Shown here piece by piece: positions 1 to 21,265 of a stretch of DNA of 24,150 nt. Every line of letters begins with the position of its first letter. Position 1 is the stretch's first letter. A model generated the notes under the pieces. That model searched no databases. It worked only from the letters and a program-made list of their open reading frames with translations, and was not told the origin of the DNA. The position numbers and the translations under genes are program-made. Source of the DNA: Octopus sinensis (Eukaryota); NCBI RefSeq assembly GCF_006345805.1, contig NW_021836475.1, forward strand, positions 1-24,150, given 5' to 3'.

Positions 1-990
1 CACCCCTTGGGCATCTCCAAATTACCAATCCACTGACTTCTTTACCACTGCAGATCTAAAATCAGAGGCGGCGACGATAGTTACATCGATATAGAGGAAG
101 ACGATGTAATAAAGGCTATAGATGAAATGAAAACAACTCAGCTACTGGCCCCGATGGATTCCCGGCAATCCTCCTAAAAAGCATGTAAGAGAGTCCTAGC
201 AAGACCACTGCAGTTTCCTCTTTCAAGCTTCCTTGCAGCTGGCAAACTTCCAAGAAAACTGAAGGAAGGTAAAAATATGCCCATTCATAAAGGAGGTAGC
301 AGAGCGGAGGCCAAGAACTACAGACCTATCTCTCTGACCTCACACATCAGCAAGGACATGGAACGAATATTCAGAAGGAACTGATCACCTTCCTTGAAGA
401 AAATGACTTGTGCTGCCTGACACCCAACATGGTTTCCGACCAGGGAGAAGCTGTTTAACTCAGCTCCTACAACACTATGACTGGGTGCTGAAACGGCTGC
501 TCAACTACTCAAATGTGGAAGTGATATATCTCGACTTTGCAAAGGCCTTTGATAAAGTCGATCATGGAATGATATGTCACAACCTGCGTAATCTCAGCAT
601 AGTTGGTAAACTGGGAGAATGGCTTCATGACTTTCTGAAAGATAGAAGTCAGGTGGTAGTAGCCAATGGGGCCACTTCCATTAACACGCAAAAAGTTTCA
701 CAGGCAATACAGAACCCTGAGGACACTAAACGCCTGCAATGTGAGCTGGACAAAATATACAAGTGGGCTGAAAAGAATAGCATGCAGTTCAATGCTGAAA
801 GTTTCAAGCTTTATGCTATCAGCATGCAAAACTAAATGCAATACCCAATGAATACACTGGACCCGGAGGAATTGCAATCCCAGAGGCACAATCAGTGCGT
901 GACCTGGGTATTTACATGAGTGATGACGCAACCTTTCGTGTACATGTTGCTAAATTGGCAATGAAATGTAGACGACTGGCCGGATGGATT
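1..990 (+). mobile_element. Decayed non-LTR retrotransposon (CR1/L2-type LINE) ORF2 fragment, reverse transcriptase region
   Basis: Frameshifted translation gives GPDGFPAILL, PIHKGGSRAEAKNYRPISLTSH, then ORF 410-835 QHGFRPGRSCLTQLL...IYLDFAKAFDKVDHG...WAEKNSMQFNAE, and later VRDLGIYMS. These are typical LINE RT motifs. The element runs off the left edge and stops at ~990, where a different repeat begins. Confidence 0.9.
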
Positions 991-1057
991 ATATTATAAA
1001 AGGCAGATTTCATCTGCCTCCCAAACCGTTTGTTTATTATACAAATCTACAATATAG

Positions 1058-2349: not shown

Positions 2350-3515
2350 TCTTTATATATAAAAGAAAGGTTGTGTGTCTGTCTACTCCGATTTTGATTC
2401 CTAATACTCCCACATTTTGCGATGCAGTTTAACCAAAACCGGGTATCTTATAGTCGTGATTCATATCGAGCCCTTCTGGGTATTAGCGCGCGTCTACAAT
2501 GAGTCTACGATTTTACAAATAATTTACCATCATTTTAATGCATATTTTTTTAAATAAAGGGAAGTAACTCTCAAACTTCACACCAATATGCGTGCTCATA
2601 TGCGACGTAATATCACATCAGCAGCATTTCCTCACACCCTCCTTGCACTTGGCAAAGGCAAAATACCAGGGGATGAAAATGGTAATATTGCCATTGATTC
2701 CATTTGTATCATTGTTAAGACGCCTTCTGATCTCAGAGATGCAGTGTTCCCAGATCTACAAGCTAATTATCAGAATATGGATTGGATTGGCCAAAAGGCT
2801 ATACTGGCCCCGAGGAATAAAACTGTTCACCATATTAATGATGAAATGCTAAAACTCATTCCTGGGGAAGTCTATGTATATCAGTCTATCGATACAACTC
2901 CTGACCCAGAGGACGTCATCAACTATCCAATAGAGGTACTCAATTCCTTTGAGCACCCCGGACTACCACCACACATTCTCAAACTTAAAGTTGGTGCCCC
3001 TATAATGCTCATCAGAAATTTGGTGATTCTTTATTACCCACTAGGGGCGACACAGAGGGGGACACCAAGAGACATGGGGACATAGAACATTATAATTAAA
3101 ATTTATGAAAAATGAATTGTTAAGTGAAAGAAAATGATAATATGAAAGCGATACTAACGGCCCCGTTCGTTAGCATCACTTACCTGTCCTTTATTTTTCA
3201 TCGTCACTTGAATGTTCTTTGCCAATACGAATAAATTCCATATCCATTCTTACTCCGAAATACTCATCCATATTTTCCACGAATTCATCGCTCATTCTTA
3301 TATCTTTCACCTCCCAATTCTCCCTTTCACACCTCACCATAAACTCATCTAGGTTCCCCCAAAACAATGCAATGGCACACGTTTGATCGTTAAGTCCTTA
3401 TCTCCCAGCGTAAACTTATATCAATATTTGCCTGAATAATCATCATAATTCAGTGCAATCATTAACAGTACTTTCAAGCAATTCAGCCCCGAGCAACGCC
3501 GGGCAATTCTGCTAG
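2350..3515 (+). mobile_element. Internally deleted Helitron (rolling-circle transposon)
   Basis: 5' end A|TCTTTATATATAAAAG (TC at 2350-2351). 3' GC-rich hairpin CCCG-AGCAACGC-CGGG (3488-3503) followed by CTAG|T (3512-3515), i.e. inserted at an AT site with no TSD. Contains a Pif1 helicase fragment. Confidence 0.8.
2570..3022 (+). pseudogene. Helitron RepHel Pif1-family helicase fragment
   Basis: LKLHTNMRA...KAILAPRNKTVHHIN...YQSID...YPIEVLNSFEHPGLPPHILKLKVGAPIMLIRNL matches the Pif1/Helitron helicase 2B-domain region (ORF 2588-3085). Similarity ends after RNL. Confidence 0.9.
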
Positions 3516-4803: not shown

Positions 4804-4870
4804 CTCCATTCTTCGAACAACATCCATTCCTTCAATTACTTTTCCAAATACTACATGTTTATTGTCCAAC
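4804..4870 (-). CDS. PPIE: PPIE/CYP33 internal exon, 67 bp: (W)[22 protein letters not shown]
   Basis: Acceptor CTACAG|G, donor GAG|GTAAAT. Completes the TG|G Trp codon from the previous exon. Cyclophilin WLDxKHVVFG motif. Confidence 0.93.
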
Positions 4871-8169: not shown

Positions 8170-8350
8170 AGATATCAACTTGTGTGTTATTGATACACAT
8201 CAATGGATATTAACTTGTTGCTGAAGTCAACAAGTATATTATTGATATATATACCAATAGATATCAATTTGCGTGTCATTGATAGATATCAACTTCTATG
8301 TTATTAATACAAATAGATATGAATTTGTATGTTATTGATACATACCAATC
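8170..8350. repeat. Degenerate ~30-35-bp minisatellite abutting the exon donor
   Basis: Recurrent GATATCAACTTGT.TGTTATTGATA(CA)..CAAT units, about 5 copies. Confidence 0.7.
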
Positions 8351-8421
8351 AGTTTTTTCTGTGCAAATGAAAAACTGTGAACCATTGGTGTTGGGTCCAC
8401 TGTTAGCCATTGATAATGTAC
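8346..8421 (-). CDS. PPIE: PPIE/CYP33 internal exon, 76 bp: (G)[24 protein letters not shown](W)
   Basis: Acceptor CCTTGCAG|GT, donor TG|GTATGT. Cyclophilin [16 protein letters not shown] motif. Not in the ORF track; read manually. Confidence 0.95.
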
Positions 8422-9384: not shown

Positions 9385-10154
9385 TATAACATTATAATTA
9401 TTAGGGTTGTGATGTATTGAATTATGCTCCCTTTCATTCTTAGTTCAAACCCTGCTAATGTCAACTTTGCCTTTTATACTACCAAGCACATAAAACAAGT
9501 TTTGGGATTGATCTAACTATATTCTTTACCCCAAATTAACTACACTCTCAACACAATTCTCTCACTGTATCAAGAATAGAAATCATCATAGTTATTTTTC
9601 CTCTCAGGGGACATCTGCAGTCCACTCAGTCAGTATTTATCTCCAATTTTACATGATTAAGTCTATGAAAGACAACCTCCTTTAAAATTATCTCAATCTG
9701 TCACAAATTAACTTTCCTCCAAAAGAAAGGAACAAATCTCAGAACTGCAATCACTGAAGAATTACATCACATTTTTTACTGACAGTCAAAGGAAGGAACA
9801 GCAGAAGCCATGACTCCTTTCGGGGCCTCTGGGAGAGTAAAAAGAGATTATATTCAAATCAGAGAATTGACTTAAATGTTTGCAATAGAATGAACTCTGC
9901 AAAAGGTATCCAATGTGGAACTATATCAGGTAGTTAGGTATAGATATTCTATGCGTCAGCCAGTGACACATGATATTGCCCATAGTAGGGTATGAACCAC
10001 TATCCAGTTGATAAATTGTCCAGCACTTCTATCAACTTATGCTGGCATAAGAAACACATCGACAAATAATTGTTAGTTTTTCAAATAAGTTAAATTTCCC
10101 TTAGCTGATAAAGAAAACACAGCTAAAACAAAATGGCAGGCTATTTCCACTTAC

Positions 10155-10260
10155 CAGCTCCTGTATGTTTTAAGACAAAATTTTCATCATCAAATTTATT
10201 TCCATAAATTGATTTTCCTCCTGTTCCATTGTGCCTCGTAAAGTCACCCCCTTGACACAT
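10155..10260 (-). CDS. PPIE: PPIE/CYP33 internal exon, 106 bp: [35 protein letters not shown](G)
   Basis: Non-canonical acceptor GTAC|ATG (AC), donor G|GTAAGT. Cyclophilin QGGDFT..NGTGG.SIYG motif. Confidence 0.95.
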
Positions 10261-10399
10261 GTACTTCAGAGTTAAGAACAAATATAATGTAGAGATACAA
10301 ATCCTTAACATTGTTTGCAAAAAAAGACCACTTTTCACTTTATAAATCATTTTCATTATTCATTGTTATCAGTGTAACAGCTTTTAAAATAAAAATATT

Positions 10400-10588
10400 T
10401 TAACCCTTTTCCTACCTATCTGCCAGAGACTTTTCCGGGTTCTGACACAAACTTTCTGTTTCACAGTGATCTAAATTTTTTCCTGTTAATTTGTTCCAAA
10501 TTTGTTCATGAAGACAGTTATTTTACCTAATTCTTTATTATTTTCAAAATTTATTGAAACAATGGTAATATAGTAACAAAAAGATTAA
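10400..10588. mobile_element. TTAA-flanked MITE (piggyBac-like termini), copy 1 in the U12 intron
   Basis: Starts TTAACCCTTTT, ends GTAACAAAAAGATTAA. Body similar to 10701-10927 and 16017-16247. Confidence 0.6.
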
Positions 10589-10700
10589 ACATGCTTTTAG
10601 AGTAAAAACTATATATATTTTCATTAAACAAAATACAGAATTAACTTAGAAAAGAGGTATGTTTCTCTTCTTAATTTAATTACTATAAAAAAATAATATA

Positions 10701-10927
10701 TGAACACTTTTGAAATCACTCCACCTGAAAATGCCTCTGATTCTATGATATACACTTCCACTTTTAAAGTGACCTAAATTAAAATCATCTATCAAAATTT
10801 CAGGTTACATAATGTTCTGAACACCAACTTAATAGTGAAGTTATTTTACTAAATCTTTCATTATTTCTGATATCAACTGAAGCAGAGGCAGAGCATTTCA
10901 ATGGTAGGATGGTAACAAAAAGGTTAA
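10701..10927. mobile_element. TTAA-flanked MITE, copy 2 in the U12 intron
   Basis: Ends GGTAACAAAAAGGTTAA. Shares GTGA.CTAAATT, ATCAAAATTTCA.GTT, AACACCAACTTAATA and TTATTTTACTAAAT with the other copies. Confidence 0.6.
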
Positions 10928-11213
10928 TTGTTAGGCTTATCAAATGGTATTCCTTTGTGAATGTTGATTCTATCTATTTGTTCTGATTTACATCATTAAA
11001 GGGTGCATAATTAAAAGACATTTAAGCCTCCCATTTATTTTGATACAATATATGTAAGATTATTCTAAAAATATGAATAGATCCACACAAATTAACAACA
11101 TTTTGCAACTAGATTATTTTCCTAATGCTAAACAAACATTCTATCTTTAATGATGTAAAATAACTCTAGAAATTGACTTGGAAAATAGTTTCACTCAGTT
11201 TTGATTAGGATAT

Positions 11214-11293
11214 AAACTGTGGAATGATTCGATGCAATGTGCTTCCTTTATAACCAAAGCCTCTGTCATGGGTACAAAGGCAACGAAAATTCT
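11214..11293 (-). CDS. PPIE: PPIE/CYP33 internal exon, 80 bp: (E)[26 protein letters not shown]
   Basis: Acceptor TTTGCAG|AG, U12 donor TTT|[28 protein letters not shown] is characteristic of cyclophilin E. Confidence 0.95.
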
Positions 11294-11929
11294 CTGCAAA
11301 GAAATATATGGTATACATTAACATTTTCACTATCATCAACATCATAATCACATAATTAACATTCATTTTTATACTGTCTTGAACAGATTCACAATTAAAC
11401 ATACTTTAGTCTTTTACTACTTCCAATCACCAAACTATTCCCTTGCTGGAGTTTTAGATTATCATATTCAGAGTCTTAGATTATTATATTGAGCTTCACC
11501 CTGCTTATTTCAGTCTGGTACAGATTTTTTTCTTTTTCAATTTATATTTTATGAAATTACTGAACGTTCACTTTTTGATACAATACAATATGGCAACTGT
11601 AATCAGACATACACACAATGATGATGTGCATATTTCGGTGTGTATGTGTATATGTACTGCTATATTCACTATTATTTTTCCCCCGTACTTTCATATTCTC
11701 ATCTCCCCATCACTCGTTATCTTCCAGCCCATCTTAAAGTTTAGTGTAAGAGACTACAGTGACCAACTGTGTCCCATAGTCTTTACCTTTATCCTCCCCT
11801 CCTCTACTGCCAGTCAAGTACTCCAATCACTCTCCACCTCACCCATTCCTCTTGTCATCATTATTACTCATGTCTCACTCTACAAAGAAGTTGGCAAGTG
11901 AGCTGACACATAGGTGGTGAGATCCCTTT

Positions 11930-13593: not shown

Positions 13594-14874
13594 CGAGGGG
13601 TGTATGAAAAGTTTTGAGCCTAACTTAGAAACAGGGCTGCTAGGAAACTGAAACAATTTTTTCTGGTAAGTACAGTCTTTTCGGAGTATTTTTGCTCATT
13701 TTCATGATTCTGATATTTTAATTTTTTTTGTTTCAGATTTTTGAATAAACAAGTGTCGAGGTTACATGGAAAATGGGGAAAACTGAGTAACGTACTGTCA
13801 TAAAGTACCTTCATTTGAAAGGCATGACTCCATCAGACATCCATGAAGATAAAGTGAGAACCGTAACAGACAATGCTCCTTCATATGCAACAGTCAAACG
13901 ATGGGTAAATGAATTCCAGTGTGTTAGGGAGAGTGTGGAAGATGATCCCACACCAGGGAGACCTCCAACTGCAACCACCGAGGACAACATTGACCTTGCT
14001 CTTGGTATGATAATGCAAGATCGTCAAATATCATGTCGTCAGATAGCCGAGAGACTGGGCATCTCAACTTGAAAGAGTAAATAACATTGTGACAAAAGAA
14101 CTTGGGTTCTCAAAGGTTTCTGCAAGGTGGGTCCCTTGCCTTTTGACTCCTGAACAGAAATGCACCAGATGCACTTTGTCCACGAGCAATCAGTTGTTTG
14201 AAGAGAATTTTCTTGCTCGTTTCATAGGATGGACAAAAGTTGGGTTCATCACTACCAGCCTGAAACCAAAGAACAATCAAAGCAGTAGAAGCACTCATCT
14301 TTACCTACCCCCAAAGAAGGCCAGGGTCATTCCTTCAGCTGGCAAGGTCATGGCGTCCGTTTTTTGGGATTCTCAAGTTGTCTTGCTGATCAATTAACTT
14401 GAAAGGGTCACACAGTGACGGGGCTGTATTATTGTCGGCTACTAAAATGCCTCCGAGAAGCAATCAAAGAAAAAAGACCGGCAATGCTCACCAGAAGAGT
14501 CCTTTTTCATCACGACAATGCTCCAACCGACACCTCAGTGGTTGCCATGGCAACAATTCATGATTGTGGACACAAACTTGTTCCCCATCCACCTTATTCG
14601 CCAGACTTAGCCCCCTCTGACTTTCATCTATTCCCAAAAATGAAAAAAAGCCCTGGATGGACGCCATTCTGCCAGTGACAATGAGGTCATAGACGCTGTA
14701 GGAAGTTTTTAGAGTCTCAAACAAAAGAGTTCCTCCACGCCAGGATAATGGCACTTCAACACTGCTGGAGAAAGTGTTCAGCCATCGAGGGGGACTATGT
14801 TGAAAAATAAATCATCAGAAGTCTTGTACTATATTTTGTTTTTTTGAGGCTCAAGACTTTTTATACACCCCTAG
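13594..14874 (+). mobile_element. Full-length mariner DNA transposon (1281 bp), decayed
   Basis: 28-bp TIRs (13594-13621 CGAGGGGTGTATGAAAAGTTTTGAGCCT and 14847-14874, 25/28 identical). TA target duplication at 13592-93 and 14875-76. Confidence 0.95.
13773..14810 (+). pseudogene. Mariner transposase pseudogene (DD34D type)
   Basis: MGKTE*RTVIKYLHLKG...GRPPT...SARWVPCLLT...GKVMASVFWDS...HHDNAP...HPPYSPDLAPSDFHLF...GDYVEK*. Split by stops and frameshifts over ORFs 13815, 14089 and 14415. Confidence 0.92.
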
Positions 14875-16419: not shown

Positions 16420-16762
16420 TCAACATCAATGGAAATTGTAGCTGTGATACCAGTGCCGGTGGCACGTAAGAGAACTATCCGAACGTGGCCATTGCCAGCA
16501 CTGCCCTGACTGTCCTCCGTGCCGGTGGCACGTAAAAAGCACCATCCGATCATGGCCGTTTGCCGGCCTCGTCTGGCACCTGTGCAGGTGACACGTAAAA
16601 AGCACCCACTACACTCACGGAGTGGTTGGCGTTAGGAAGGGCATCCAGCCGTAGAAACACTGCCAGATCAGACTGGGCCTGGTGCAGCCTTCTGGCATCC
16701 CAGACCCCAGTTGAACCGTCCAACCCATGCCAGCATGGAAAGCGGACGTTTAAACGAACGAC
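16420..16762 (+). mobile_element. RTE 3'UTR-derived element with ~2.4 copies of a ~65-bp unit
   Basis: GTGCCGGTGGCACGTAA.A units, then AGCACCCACTACACTC.CGGAGTGGTTGGCGTTAGGAAGGGCATCCAGC...CCAACCCATGCCAGCATGGAAAGCGGACGTT. CpGs are retained, so this copy is relatively young. A decayed inverted copy follows at ~16780-16880. Confidence 0.8.
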
Positions 16763-17389
16763 GAATACAAGGAACATGTTTTAACAGCCACTATTCCATG
16801 CTTGCATAGATTGGATGGAATTTACTGAGGTAGACTGTATACAGCTGGATGCTCTTCCTGTCACCAACCCTCACCTACATCTTCACATCACCAACCTATG
16901 AAGCATGTTAACCCAAATCCCACTGACTGTGGGACCATTAAGTCACCTCAGTGACTAGAACTTGTGGCTTCTCATTTAAAAATTAAGCGTATTCCCATAG
17001 ATTGAGAAAAAGTATGAAAAAAAAACAGGGAGAAAGTGAAGGAGAGAGAAGATACATTTATTTACTAGTATAAGCATTGCTGTATGATTAAAAAATTTCC
17101 TTCCCAACCATGTGGTTTTTGGTTCAGTCCCACCAAAGCAAGTTGCATACATATATGTATAAACATCACCATCATACAAGTATTGTTGTTCATTTGAAAT
17201 TTTCATGAAGCAACTCTGGCCATCATGTTGTTTGTGTAGCCATATGACGAGGAGAAATATTACTTTGGTGGGTCAGTGACAGGAAGAGCATTGGCCATAG
17301 AAAATCTGCCTCAAAAAATTCCATCTGACCCATTACTAGAAAACTATACGTAACAACATCAATGATGAATGAAAATAGAGATGTGTTAC

Positions 17390-17519
17390 CTGCAGTTTTG
17401 GGAACGACATCAGCTCGGAGCTCCATCACTATACGACCAATATTCTTGGTACCAATCCGGATGTCAAAGAAGACTTGTGGATTAACTTTGGGTTTTTTCT
17501 TCACTGGTTCGTCATTCGT
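17390..17519 (-). CDS. PPIE: PPIE/CYP33 internal exon, 130 bp: [43 protein letters not shown](E)
   Basis: Acceptor ATTTTAG|ACG, donor G|GTAACA. Start of the cyclophilin domain (NPQV.FDI.IG...GRI...LR.DVVP.TAENF), preceded by a basic KKKPK stretch. Confidence 0.93.
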
Positions 17520-18204
17520 CTAAAATACAGAGTTTTGTTTTAATTAGTCATTGATTGATATTTCCAAAAAAATAAAACAGCTTTTGTTTTTTTAAAGGCT
17601 TTTATAAAACCCAGGAAAATTATAGCTGGACATTTTATTATAACGTCTATGTGGATATTATGGTTACCAGTGATTGGTTAGTGTTGTACTGGTGGTTGTA
17701 TGGTGGTCATTGTTGCAATCATTAACTGTAACTGTCATTACAAGGTCAATCATTGTGTTACTGGTTGATACTTCACAGTTATCCTTGTGGTCATTGTCAT
17801 GCTCACTGTTTTGTCATAGTAGTTGTGTGATCTTCCTTGTTGTTGTTGTTACTTAACTCTAGGTATGTCATGATCAAGTAGACCTAAGATCAAAAATGTT
17901 TTACCCATAAGAAACCCATCATTTTTCTATAACTACACCACCAACATTAGTTCTTTAAGATGGTAGTGTGGTGGTAATGTGAAATTTGAAGAAAAACTTG
18001 GTTGCTACATTTAGCAAGACTGGCTAGTATGAAGTGGTTCCCTGAATCTTAGTTTTGGTTGATGTATGGTAGTCATCATAATGGTCACAATCATTAAGGT
18101 GTTGGTCATCTTTGAGGTTGCAGTGGTCAGCAGAGTGGTTGTGGTCATCATAATAGATATGGTGTTGTGTAGCCATTAATATGTAGTTTGGTGATTTAGT
18201 GAAA

Positions 18205-19063
18205 ATAGATCAGCTGTGTGAAAAAGTGTCACACCCCAGCAGTAAAGGGAACCTGTGGAAGAGGTAGACCCAGGAAGACCTGGGATGAGATGGTGAAGCG
18301 TGACCTTTGAACGTTAGGCCTCACGGAGGCAATGATAAGTGACTGAGACCTTTGAAGATATGCTATGCTTGAGAAGACCCGGCAATCCAAGTGAGACTGT
18401 AACTGTGGCCTATACACGTGCAGCATAACTGGCTCATCTAAGAGTACCCTTCAATCATTGGGCAATAAACTGCGCTTGCGAAGACCTATTGAATCAAGTG
18501 AAGCCATTGTCCTGGATGATGATAGTACCACCTAATTTCCACCTGTGCCAGTGGCACATTAAAAGCACCAGCCGAGCATAGTTGATGCCAGTGCCGTCTG
18601 ACTGGACCTGTGCCAGTGGCATGTCAAAAGTATCATTTGAGCATTGTCAATGCCAGTGCTGGCTGACTGGTCCTGTGCTGGTGGCACATAAAAACACCAT
18701 TCGAGCGTGGTTGATGCTAGTGCCAGCTCACTGGTCCCATGCCGGAGGCATGTAAAAAGCACCATTCGAGCATGATCATTGCCAGTGCCACCTGACTGGC
18801 TCCCATGCCAGTGGCATGTAAAAAGCATCATTCAAGCGTGGTCGATGCCAGGACCGCCTGATGTTCCCTATGCCGTTGACACGTAAAAAGCACCCACTAC
18901 ATTCTCAGAGTGGTTGACATTAGGAAGGGCATCCAGCTGTAGAAACTCTGCCAGATCAAATTGGAGCCTGGTGCAGCCTTCTGGCTAACCAGCCCTCAGT
19001 CAAACCATCCAACCCATGCCAACATGGAAAGCGGACATTAAAAGACGATGATGATGATGATGA
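18205..19063 (+). mobile_element. 5'-truncated RTE-type LINE: ORF C-terminus, 3'UTR with tandem array, (GAT)n tail
   Basis: CVKKCHT..VKGTCGRGRPRKTWDEMVKRDL*TLGLTEAM (RTE C-terminal motif). Tandem ~65-bp units at 18542-18890. Tail GACGATGATGATGATGATGAT. Confidence 0.85.
18542..18895 (+). repeat. Tandem array, ~65-bp unit x ~5.4
   Basis: Units start at ~18542, 18607, 18672, 18736, 18802 and 18867: CC.GTGCC.GTGGCA.GTAAAAAGCACCATTCGAGC.TGGT.GATGCCAGTGCC..CTGACTGG. Confidence 0.9.
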
Positions 19064-19150: not shown

Positions 19151-19257
19151 CGAGTCTGTTTTCACAGATGTCTGTTCTGTGTCGTCATCCACAGTCTCAT
19201 CTGATTTTGCTACAGTTTCACCAGCATGCTCTCGTAACCAGTTGTCATCAGACCAAA
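19151..19257 (-). CDS. PPIE: PPIE/CYP33 internal exon, 107 bp: (V)WSDDNWLREHAGETVAKSDETVDDDTEQTSVKTDS
   Basis: Acceptor TTACTTCAG|TT, donor TCG|GTAAGT. WSDDxWL is the helix that follows the RRM in CYP33, which identifies the gene as PPIE rather than PPIA/PPIF. In frame with the next exon. Not in the ORF track. Confidence 0.9.
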
Positions 19258-20431: not shown

Positions 20432-21265
20432 CATTCAATTCAATTCAATTTCAATTTTTATTGGCTCAAAAAGCAAAAGCAAGGCCATGTAGGAGGACAG
20501 GGAGTTATGTACAAGGAGGGTGATCATACAAAGAGTTCAGGCCATTTCTGGTCAAGAGAGACTTTGAACCGAGCGGTCTTCGGCATCTTCATTATGTTGT
20601 CCGGCAGCTTATTCCACGGATCCGCAACCCGGACAGAGAAAGCCGCTCTCCTTCGATTGAGATGAAATCGTCGTAGATAGAGCTTTTCGGAGTGACCCTG
20701 CAGCCCACGCTCTGGAGCAGGAGTGAAGAAAAGCTCTTTCGAGAGGTTACACTTTCCACTTATGATGTTGTGAGCGAGAATGAGATCAGCACGGCAGCGG
20801 CGTTTTTCTGGAGAATAAAGGTCGAGCTTCTTCAGCCTTTCTTCATAAGACAAATGCTTGAGACCAAGAACCATGCAGGTAAACAGCTTCTGGACTCTTT
20901 CGAGATGATGTATGTCTTTGAGGAGATAAGGAGAAGCTTGAATCCCATACTCCAACATGGATCTCACCAGCGTGACATAGAGTGGTAGGAATATGGCTGC
21001 TGTGAGCATTCCGAATGACCATCGAATCAAAAACAGAACTCTGCATGCTTTGTTGACAGCATGGACGCATTGGGCCAAAGGCAAAAAGGAAGAATCCACC
21101 AAGATACCCAGGTCCTTTACTTGGTTGGTCTTCTCCAGCAGCAGACGACCCGGCTCGAAATCAAGTTGAGTTGCAGGAGAGGAGCCATCAGGCAGATGAC
21201 AGCACTTTGACACGTTCAGACACAGGTCCCATTCATTTGACCATCTCCAAACTTGGTGGAGGCCT
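20432..21265 (-). mobile_element. 5'-truncated CR1/L2-type LINE 3' end with (TTGAA)n tail
   Basis: QVWRWSNEWDLCLNVSKC...KDLGILVD...LYVTLVRSMLEY...LERVQ...LSYEERL..LDLYS.E.RR.RADLI...FSVRV...WNKLP (ORF 20524-21213). Short 3'UTR, then AATAAAAATTGAAATTGAATTGAATTGAA. Confidence 0.9.

What the first reader, a model, noticed from the sequence alone, without database searches (positions are those of the whole stretch)
10261..11213. Rare AT-AC minor-spliceosome intron splitting the active site of a spliceosomal cyclophilin
Seen: donor ATATCCTA, branch site TTCTTAAC 10 nt before a terminal AC, and no pyrimidine tract between them. Removal gives the conserved HRIIPQF|MCQGGD. The nearest GT-AG alternative (CA|GTTTAT ... 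AAG|TAC) shifts the frame. If the intron is retained the reading is ATA TCC TAA, a stop after two codons. Established: U12 introns are well under 1% of introns, AT-AC is the rarer subtype, they often splice slowly, and PPIE/CYP33 is a spliceosome-associated protein. The junction lies between the residues equivalent to CypA F60 and M61. Inference: this could be a rate-limiting switch between full-length CYP33 and an NMD-targeted or RRM-only product. Gene predictors are likely to mis-model it. I do not know whether orthologues share the intron.
Basis: partly seen in the sequence, partly recalled or inferred. Interest (0 to 1): 0.72.

Follow-up and report, generated by a model that had tools for sequence, protein, structure and literature searches.

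The report
Octopus minor intron with switched ends
A rare AT-AC intron in the octopus gene for the splicing factor PPIE is cut out exactly at those ends in sequence assemblies; the same intron sits at the same codon, but with GT-AG ends, in DNA that groups with insects and clams, so octopuses likely flipped its ends against the usually assumed direction, while a regulatory role is untested.

Summary
The intron is real. Contigs from 4 of 4 RNA-like runs (four studies) skip exactly 953 bases at the AT..AC ends, and two more runs confirm both ends in unspliced sequence. The gene is octopus PPIE/CYP33, the junction is CypA F60|M61, and U11, U12, U4atac and U6atac genes are in the genome. Some group with insects, clams, a brachiopod and a crinoid. 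Three control minor introns in this genome start GT. So this is an old U12 intron whose AT-AC form is likely a derived GT-AG to AT-AC switch, the reverse of the textbook direction; its donor also has an off-consensus A at +8. One octopus annotation is split at this intron. The rate-limiting-switch idea could not be tested.

The parts
10261..11213 (-). U12-type AT-AC intron, 953 nt, phase 0, between codons for CypA-equivalent F60 and M61
11206..11213 (-). U12 5' splice site ATATCCTA; +8 is A where 46 of 46 orthologous donors have T
11205..11207 (-). In-frame TAA reached after two codons if the intron is retained
   Evidence: ends the annotated record P0121
10271..10278 (-). U12 branch-point motif TTCTTAAC, complementary to the genome's U12 snRNA with one G-U pair (pairing register recalled)
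10261..10262 (-). Terminal AC acceptor
10264..10265 (-). AG three bases upstream of the AC; with the AT donor it would add one Tyr in frame; use not seen
   Evidence: sequence; no such joint among those listed (110 joints not shown)
11214..11293 (-). PPIE exon upstream of the intron (80 nt; carries R55 and F60 equivalents)
10155..10260 (-). PPIE exon downstream of the intron (106 nt; carries M61 and Q63 equivalents)
19151..19257 (-). PPIE linker exon (107 nt), predicted
17390..17519 (-). PPIE exon, start of cyclophilin domain (130 nt), predicted; 100% identical to an Octopus record
8346..8421 (-). PPIE exon (76 nt); its GT-AG junction to the 106-nt exon is seen in 4 of 4 runs
4804..4870 (-). 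PPIE exon (67 nt), predicted; last exon of the gene found in the window

Best explanation
This is an old intron of the PPIE gene that is cut out at its AT-AC ends, likely by the minor (U12) spliceosome, and whose ends likely changed from GT-AG to AT-AC on the line leading to Octopus. Shown: the junction, the U12 signals, the four minor snRNA genes, the same position and GT-AG ends in other animals. Inferred: U11/U6atac pair with +4..+7 of the donor and U12 with the branch site; the switch went by two point changes (G+1 to A, G-1 to C) through an AT-AG or GT-AC intermediate; removal is constitutive but somewhat slow, as for the class in general, perhaps more so because of the A at +8; unspliced molecules would mostly be destroyed in the nucleus rather than translated.
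For: Junction in 4 of 4 RNA-like runs. Both ends intact in X18 and X19. U11, U12, U6atac, U4atac over Rfam cut-off on chromosome-scale contigs. 46 of 51 pattern hits are cyclophilin exons and 46 of 46 start GTATCCTT although the pattern allowed A or G; 30 of 30 with a downstream exon end AG; 31 sequence clusters; 21 of 46 also hold RRM or PPIE-linker exons. Tree placement: L017 inside heterodont bivalves (100), L030 with ant and bee (100), L020/L034/L053 in insects (97-98), L032/L051/L054 with a brachiopod (86), L025 with a crinoid (83). An AT-AC ancestor needs at least 3-4 separate conversions, a GT-AG ancestor one. 3 of 3 clear control minor donors in G000 (two Derlins, VPS35) are GT. 0 of 9 other cyclophilin loci of G000 have an intron here.
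Against: No cephalopod DNA outside close relatives was seen, so the switch is undated and rests on parsimony. No AT-AC orthologue was found, but the sample is biased: about half of the loci fall in or near one unassigned clade, and no locus could be assigned to a non-bilaterian (one search failed to place L023). The literature holds AT-AC to GT-AG to be the usual direction (PMC2831892, PMC3291851; passages), mixed termini are disfavoured (PMC3584512; passages), and insects such as the honey bee lack the AT-AC-specific factor DROL1/TXNL4B (10.1101/2020.10.19.345900; passages), which could drive repeated conversion to GT-AG. Deep nodes of the tree are weak and do not recover animal phylogeny. 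U12 dependence was not tested experimentally. The 5 hits dropped as non-cyclophilin all had AT at +1 (no match to PPIE).
Confidence: 0.77

Rival explanations
1. Regulated switch: the weak AT-AC intron limits PPIE output, and its retention changes with tissue or stress, tying a major-spliceosome subunit to minor-spliceosome activity.
For: Intron kept as U12-type across several phyla. Donor off-consensus at +8. Contigs running from the upstream exon into the intron exist in X1, X5, X6. [quoted passage not shown] PPIE belongs to the intron-binding complex (PMC10208982, passages); another subunit, CCDC16/ZNF830, has an AT-AC intron in Drosophila (PMC3291851 supplement).
Against: No level or tissue data. 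PPIE is absent from a human minor-intron table that lists DERL2 and VPS35, and a second PPIE in G000 lacks the intron, so it is dispensable in some lineages. A pan-eukaryote survey argues that neutral processes explain much of minor-intron evolution (PMC10639083, title and passages).
Confidence: 0.15
2. AT-AC is the ancestral state, kept in Octopus, and the other lineages converted to GT-AG independently.
For: AT-AC to GT-AG is the direction proposed in print. Loss of TXNL4B/DROL1 in some insects could favour conversion. No non-bilaterian outgroup was assigned.
Against: 0 of 46 orthologous loci are AT, including a bivalve mollusc. Subtype mixing is uncommon: 36 of nearly 1000 U12DB clusters, none among 71 insect introns, so 3-4 parallel conversions at one site are improbable unless the bias is several hundred-fold (inference).
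Confidence: 0.12
3. The AT-AC ends are processed by the major spliceosome (U2-type AT-AC), or the true ends are AT-AT shifted by two bases.
For: The joint has 2 letters of ambiguity. U2-type AT-AC introns exist.
Against: U2-type AT-AC introns have G at +5; this one has C, a U12 branch site at U12 spacing and no pyrimidine tract. Only the AT..AC register starts at the U12 donor and matches the orthologous position.
Confidence: 0.02

Closest known systems
U12-type (minor) spliceosomal introns, AT-AC subtype (Turunen et al. 2013, PMC3584512; passages seen)
   Same: RTATCCT donor, TYCTTAAC branch site 11-13 nt from the 3' end, no pyrimidine tract, one minor intron among U2 introns, host gene in RNA processing.
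   Different: A at +8 instead of T; phase 0, which is under-represented in the class (PMC7367187, passages).
U12 subtype switches (Lin et al. 2010, PMC2831892; Sheth et al. 2006, PMC1557818; passages seen)
   Same: Orthologous introns at one codon with both GT-AG and AT-AC ends; 36 such clusters in U12DB; AT-AG introns proposed as intermediates.
   Different: The polarised example seen there (fish Syntaxin-6) and the model go AT-AC to GT-AG; here parsimony points the other way. A search for 'GT-AG to AT-AC' with 'U12' gave one paper, where the phrase is a ratio.
PPIE / CYP33 / cyclophilin E (human chain 5mqf_o and 26 further entries)
   Same: RRM + linker + cyclophilin domain; best solved match, E 1e-110; intron-binding-complex subunit.
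   Different: Human PPIE is not listed among minor-intron genes in PMC4667643 supplement file 5; that it has no intron at this codon is recalled, not checked.
Automated catalogues (intronIC / 'Where the minor things are', PMC10639083)
   Same: Octopus sinensis and O. bimaculoides were among the genomes scanned, and their protein records join F|M correctly, so the intron is probably a row there.
   Different: I could not see the per-intron tables; no text or supplement searched names PPIE.

Membership tests
U12-type intron | 5' splice site RTATCCT(T) at the exon end | tested here: met
   ATATCCT matches +1..+7; +8 is A, off consensus
U12-type intron | Branch site like TCCTTAAC about 11-13 nt from the 3' end | tested here: met
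   TTCTTAAC at 10278-10271; its adenosines are 13 and 12 nt from the end
U12-type intron | No polypyrimidine tract | tested here: met
   10 nt between motif and end, mixed bases
U12-type intron | Removed at those ends in transcripts | tested here: met
   953-base skip in 4 of 4 runs; RNA status of the runs is a guess of the tool, 2 letters of ambiguity
U12-type intron | Minor spliceosome present in the organism | tested here: met
   U11, U12, U6atac, U4atac matches over cut-off in G000; expression not tested
U12-type intron | Splicing depends on U11/U12/U6atac | not testable with these tools
   needs knock-down or lariat mapping
U2-type AT-AC intron | G at +5 and U2-type 3' end | tested here: not met
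   C at +5, no pyrimidine tract (criterion)
PPIE/CYP33 orthologue | RRM N-terminal to a cyclophilin domain, with the PPIE linker | tested here: met
   linker exon in window; an RRM exon on G000:C7 (94% to P0004); related records carry PF00076 + PF00160; physical join of RRM exon and window not shown
U12 subtype switch | Orthologous intron, same codon and phase, other subtype | tested here: met
   46 of 46 GT donors, 30 of 30 AG acceptors at F|M
U12 subtype switch | Direction GT-AG to AT-AC fixed by outgroups | tested here: inconclusive
   bivalve, insect, brachiopod-like and crinoid-like loci are GT-AG; no nautilus, squid, gastropod, chiton or assigned non-bilaterian DNA seen
Rate-limiting / regulated minor intron | Retention above flanking U2 introns and changing with condition | tested here: inconclusive
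   contigs only, runs chosen for holding the intron

The most novel reading that the evidence does not exclude
Octopods reversed an ancient GT-AG minor intron to AT-AC and weakened its donor (+8 A), which put PPIE, a subunit of the intron-binding complex, under the AT-AC-specific factor TXNL4B/DROL1 and made this intron a tunable brake by which minor-spliceosome activity sets the supply of a shared splicing factor.
Probability: 0.12. Interest if true: 0.65.

Novelty: new member of a known kind. Interest (0 to 1): 0.37.

Why it matters
As a class member it is ordinary. Its value is evolutionary: a polarised GT-AG to AT-AC switch contradicts the usual one-way path (AT-AC to GT-AG to U2-type), needs a disfavoured mixed-end intermediate, and gives a natural pair of the same intron in both subtypes for testing what the terminal bases do (for example TXNL4B dependence). 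It also shows an old invertebrate minor intron in a splicing-factor gene that human-centred lists miss, and explains why one octopus annotation breaks PPIE in two.

Tried and rejected
Retention level: no holder is on record as RNA and all runs were contigs. In one search intron contigs had depth 5.74, 9.88, 4.83, 5.04 beside spliced contigs at 157.9, 102.3, 34.6, 85.5; the tool states that contig depth cannot rank parts of a gene and the runs were found by holding this intron, and in X1 the flanking U2 introns also had contigs at depth 2-6, so I draw nothing from this. X2 showed intron contigs but no exon or joint, and X21 nothing specific; not used. GT-AG alternatives within 60 nt were enumerated and none restores the conserved stretch. 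A genome-wide shift to AT-AC in this animal was tested on four genes and not seen (3 clear GT donors; SRP68 gave no clear site and was not counted). Placing the L018/L023/L049 clade by a protein search failed. A search for the second half of the RRM in G000 hit only C8697. The idea that the AG at -3 is the old acceptor was set aside: it lies 7 nt from the branch motif, against 11-13 in 24 of 30 orthologues. Literature searches that named no PPIE minor intron: (listings), supplements (one file of PMC4066798 not searchable). Per-species intron tables of the large surveys were not among the files held, so prior cataloguing cannot be excluded. No fold or complex prediction was run; it would not bear on the question.

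Full report
1. Observation. On the minus strand, 11213..10261 is a 953-nt intron that begins ATATCCTA and ends with TTCTTAAC followed by 10 bases, the last two AC. Its removal joins an 80-nt and a 106-nt exon in phase 0 and gives HRIIPQF|MCQGGD. The five other exon ends that I modelled in the window have GT donors and all other acceptors are AG. In the window RTATCCT occurs 4 times and TYCTTRAC twice in 48,300 strand positions, so their joint placement is far beyond chance (post hoc). No GT/GC-AG pair within 60 nt of the ends restores the conserved stretch.

2. Splicing. Of 24 runs listed (none on record as RNA, all contigs) I laid 8. In 4 of 4 runs (four studies, three organism labels) a contig joins 10258 to 11212 and skips 953 bases; two letters fit on either side, and the right-most cut is AT..AC on the minus strand. 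The next GT-AG junction is seen in the same runs. X18 covers 10130-10558 and 11205-11330 with no other letter; X19 covers 10221-10383 with none and 11119-11330 with five, the four listed lying 19-52 nt inside the intron. An assembly error is excluded. X2 and X21 gave no joint.

3. The gene. The 43-residue exon at 17519 is 100% identical to an Octopus bimaculoides record and 85% to an Argonauta RRM-cyclophilin; the cluster holds O. sinensis and O. vulgaris records. The best solved relative is human PPIE. Offsets in that call put the junction at CypA F60|M61, with R55 upstream and Q63 and the rest of the pocket downstream. The window is a whole contig; an RRM exon lies on G000:C7. Of 9 cephalopod records aligned, 7 join F to M correctly; two O. 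vulgaris records are split at this intron, one ending I-S-stop and one starting in the intron's last bases. So the predicted mis-modelling happens, but in one annotation of five species. Whether Argonauta and the cuttlefish have the intron, and with which ends, was not seen.

4. Machinery. U11 (5 matches), U12 (3 over cut-off), U6atac (43) and U4atac (1 over cut-off) are in G000, the best on chromosome-scale contigs. From the sequences printed, the branch motif pairs with U12 with one G-U pair; the donor pairs with U11 and the U6atac box at +4..+7 but not at +8 (register recalled).

5. Orthologues. I scanned metagenome contigs for the exon end followed by RTATCCT, which admits both subtypes: 51 loci. 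Five (L007, L009, L013, L029, L037; all A at +1) are not cyclophilins and have no match to PPIE; they were dropped. The other 46 all read GTATCCTT. In 30 of 46 the next exon is on the contig, and all 30 end AG directly before M-x-Q-G-G; 24 of the 30 have a branch motif 11-13 nt from the end. They form 31 clusters, and 21 of 46 also hold RRM or PPIE-linker exons. A tree of 18 of the 46 loci with 41 named proteins places L017 within heterodont clams (support 100), L030 with ant and bee (100), L020/L034/L053 in insects (97-98), L032/L051/L054 with Lingula (86) and L025 with a crinoid (83); two further clades are unassigned, and deep nodes are weak (one search did not place L023). None of 9 other cyclophilin loci in G000 has an intron at this codon, so it is specific to PPIE. 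PPIE is absent from a human minor-intron gene table that lists DERL2 and VPS35 (PMC4667643, supplement search only).

6. Direction. With GT-AG in a bivalve, in brachiopod-like, insect and probably echinoderm DNA, one GT-AG to AT-AC change on the octopus line explains the data; an AT-AC ancestor needs at least three or four conversions. Subtype mixing is uncommon: 36 of nearly 1000 U12DB clusters (PMC2831892, passages) and none in 71 insect introns (PMC3291851, passages and supplement part 1 of 2; PPIE is not in that list as far as seen). I put the derived reading at about 0.85 (inference). The change is local: three control minor donors in G000 are GT, as listed for Derlin-2 and the VPS35-type gene in bees (the identity of CG5625 with VPS35 is recalled). 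Against it: print favours the other direction, mixed ends are disfavoured (PMC3584512, passages) though AT-AG introns exist (PMC1557818, passages and tables), and honey bee lacks DROL1/TXNL4B, which Arabidopsis needs only for AT-AC introns and which octopus has (10.1101/2020.10.19.345900, passages; supplements not seen).

7. Mechanism. Shown: boundaries, signals, snRNA genes, conservation. Inferred: removal by the minor spliceosome; two point changes via a mixed-end stage; slow but constitutive splicing. Human U12 introns are about 2-fold more retained and are exosome targets (PMC4066798, abstract), so retained molecules would likely decay in the nucleus; any that escape carry a stop upstream of several junctions and would be NMD candidates (established rule, recalled). 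A truncated RRM-linker-half-domain protein is possible but unseen. The regulatory reading is attractive because PPIE is an intron-binding-complex subunit (PMC10208982, passages) and the donor is off consensus, but contigs cannot measure retention and the intron is missing in some lineages. I give it 0.15.

8. Novelty. The class and subtype switching are known. Octopus genomes were scanned by intronIC (PMC10639083, passages and supplement search), so the intron is probably catalogued, unseen by me. I found no text on a PPIE minor intron and none on a polarised GT-AG to AT-AC switch; subscription papers such as Burge 1998 were not searchable. PMC7367187, PMC11347168 and PMC6259924 were seen as passages. 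Earlier scan notes hold nothing on this intron; one describes a comparable AT-AC intron in octopus PFDN4. Verdict: real, new member of a known kind, with one uncommon evolutionary feature. Interest 0.37.

Noticed in passing
G000, 43 places (e.g. L066 = C19:20092690-20092805, L067 = C2:207086679-207086794): 43 matches to U6atac over the Rfam cut-off among 46 candidates scored. The two best are identical over 113 nt, carry the AAGGAGA box, and share no flank: likely dispersed retrocopies of a minor snRNA.
   Followed up: partly
L004 = G000:C8697, about 16430-17560 (-): A second, divergent PPIE with introns of about 26 nt and no intron at F|M; likely DNA of a tiny-intron contaminant such as a dicyemid parasite (organism inferred from recall; an earlier scan note says the same of other contigs).
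   Followed up: partly
G000:C7:88652461-88652592 (L057): RRM exon 2 of this PPIE lies on a chromosome-scale contig, apart from the window; other RRM exons and the last exon were not found, so the gene is split in the assembly. Record P0123 reads this exon in the wrong frame.
   Followed up: partly
Records P0121 and P0124 (Octopus vulgaris): PPIE is annotated as two proteins, one ending at the intron's stop and one starting in the intron's 3' end; they also show that this species has the same ends.
   Followed up: yes
window 10261-10266 (-): Tandem acceptor AAG-TAC; use of the AG would insert one Tyr between F60 and M61 equivalents. Intron contigs of X1 and X5 both stop at 10266-10267, unexplained.
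   Followed up: partly
L023, L039, L040: Orthologous introns with a perfect U12 donor but no good branch motif at U12 spacing (best match 21-28 nt away): possible U12-to-U2 conversion intermediates.
   Followed up: no
G000:C1:87272698 (+), C1:91133121 (-), C1:107710575 (+): GT-type U12 donors at exon ends in two Derlin genes and VPS35; the Derlin-2-like intron has a clear branch site and AG.
   Followed up: yes
window 178-996 (+), 2558-3082 (+), 14047-14607 (+), 20524-21207: Decayed mobile elements inside PPIE introns or flanks: reverse-transcriptase fragments (LINE-like), a Pif1/Helitron-like helicase fragment and a mariner-like transposase fragment, judged by eye from the six-frame translation, names recalled.
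   Followed up: no
window 18542-18894 and 1989-2348: Tandem arrays of a 65-nt unit (5.4 copies) and a 162-nt unit (2.2 copies).
   Followed up: no
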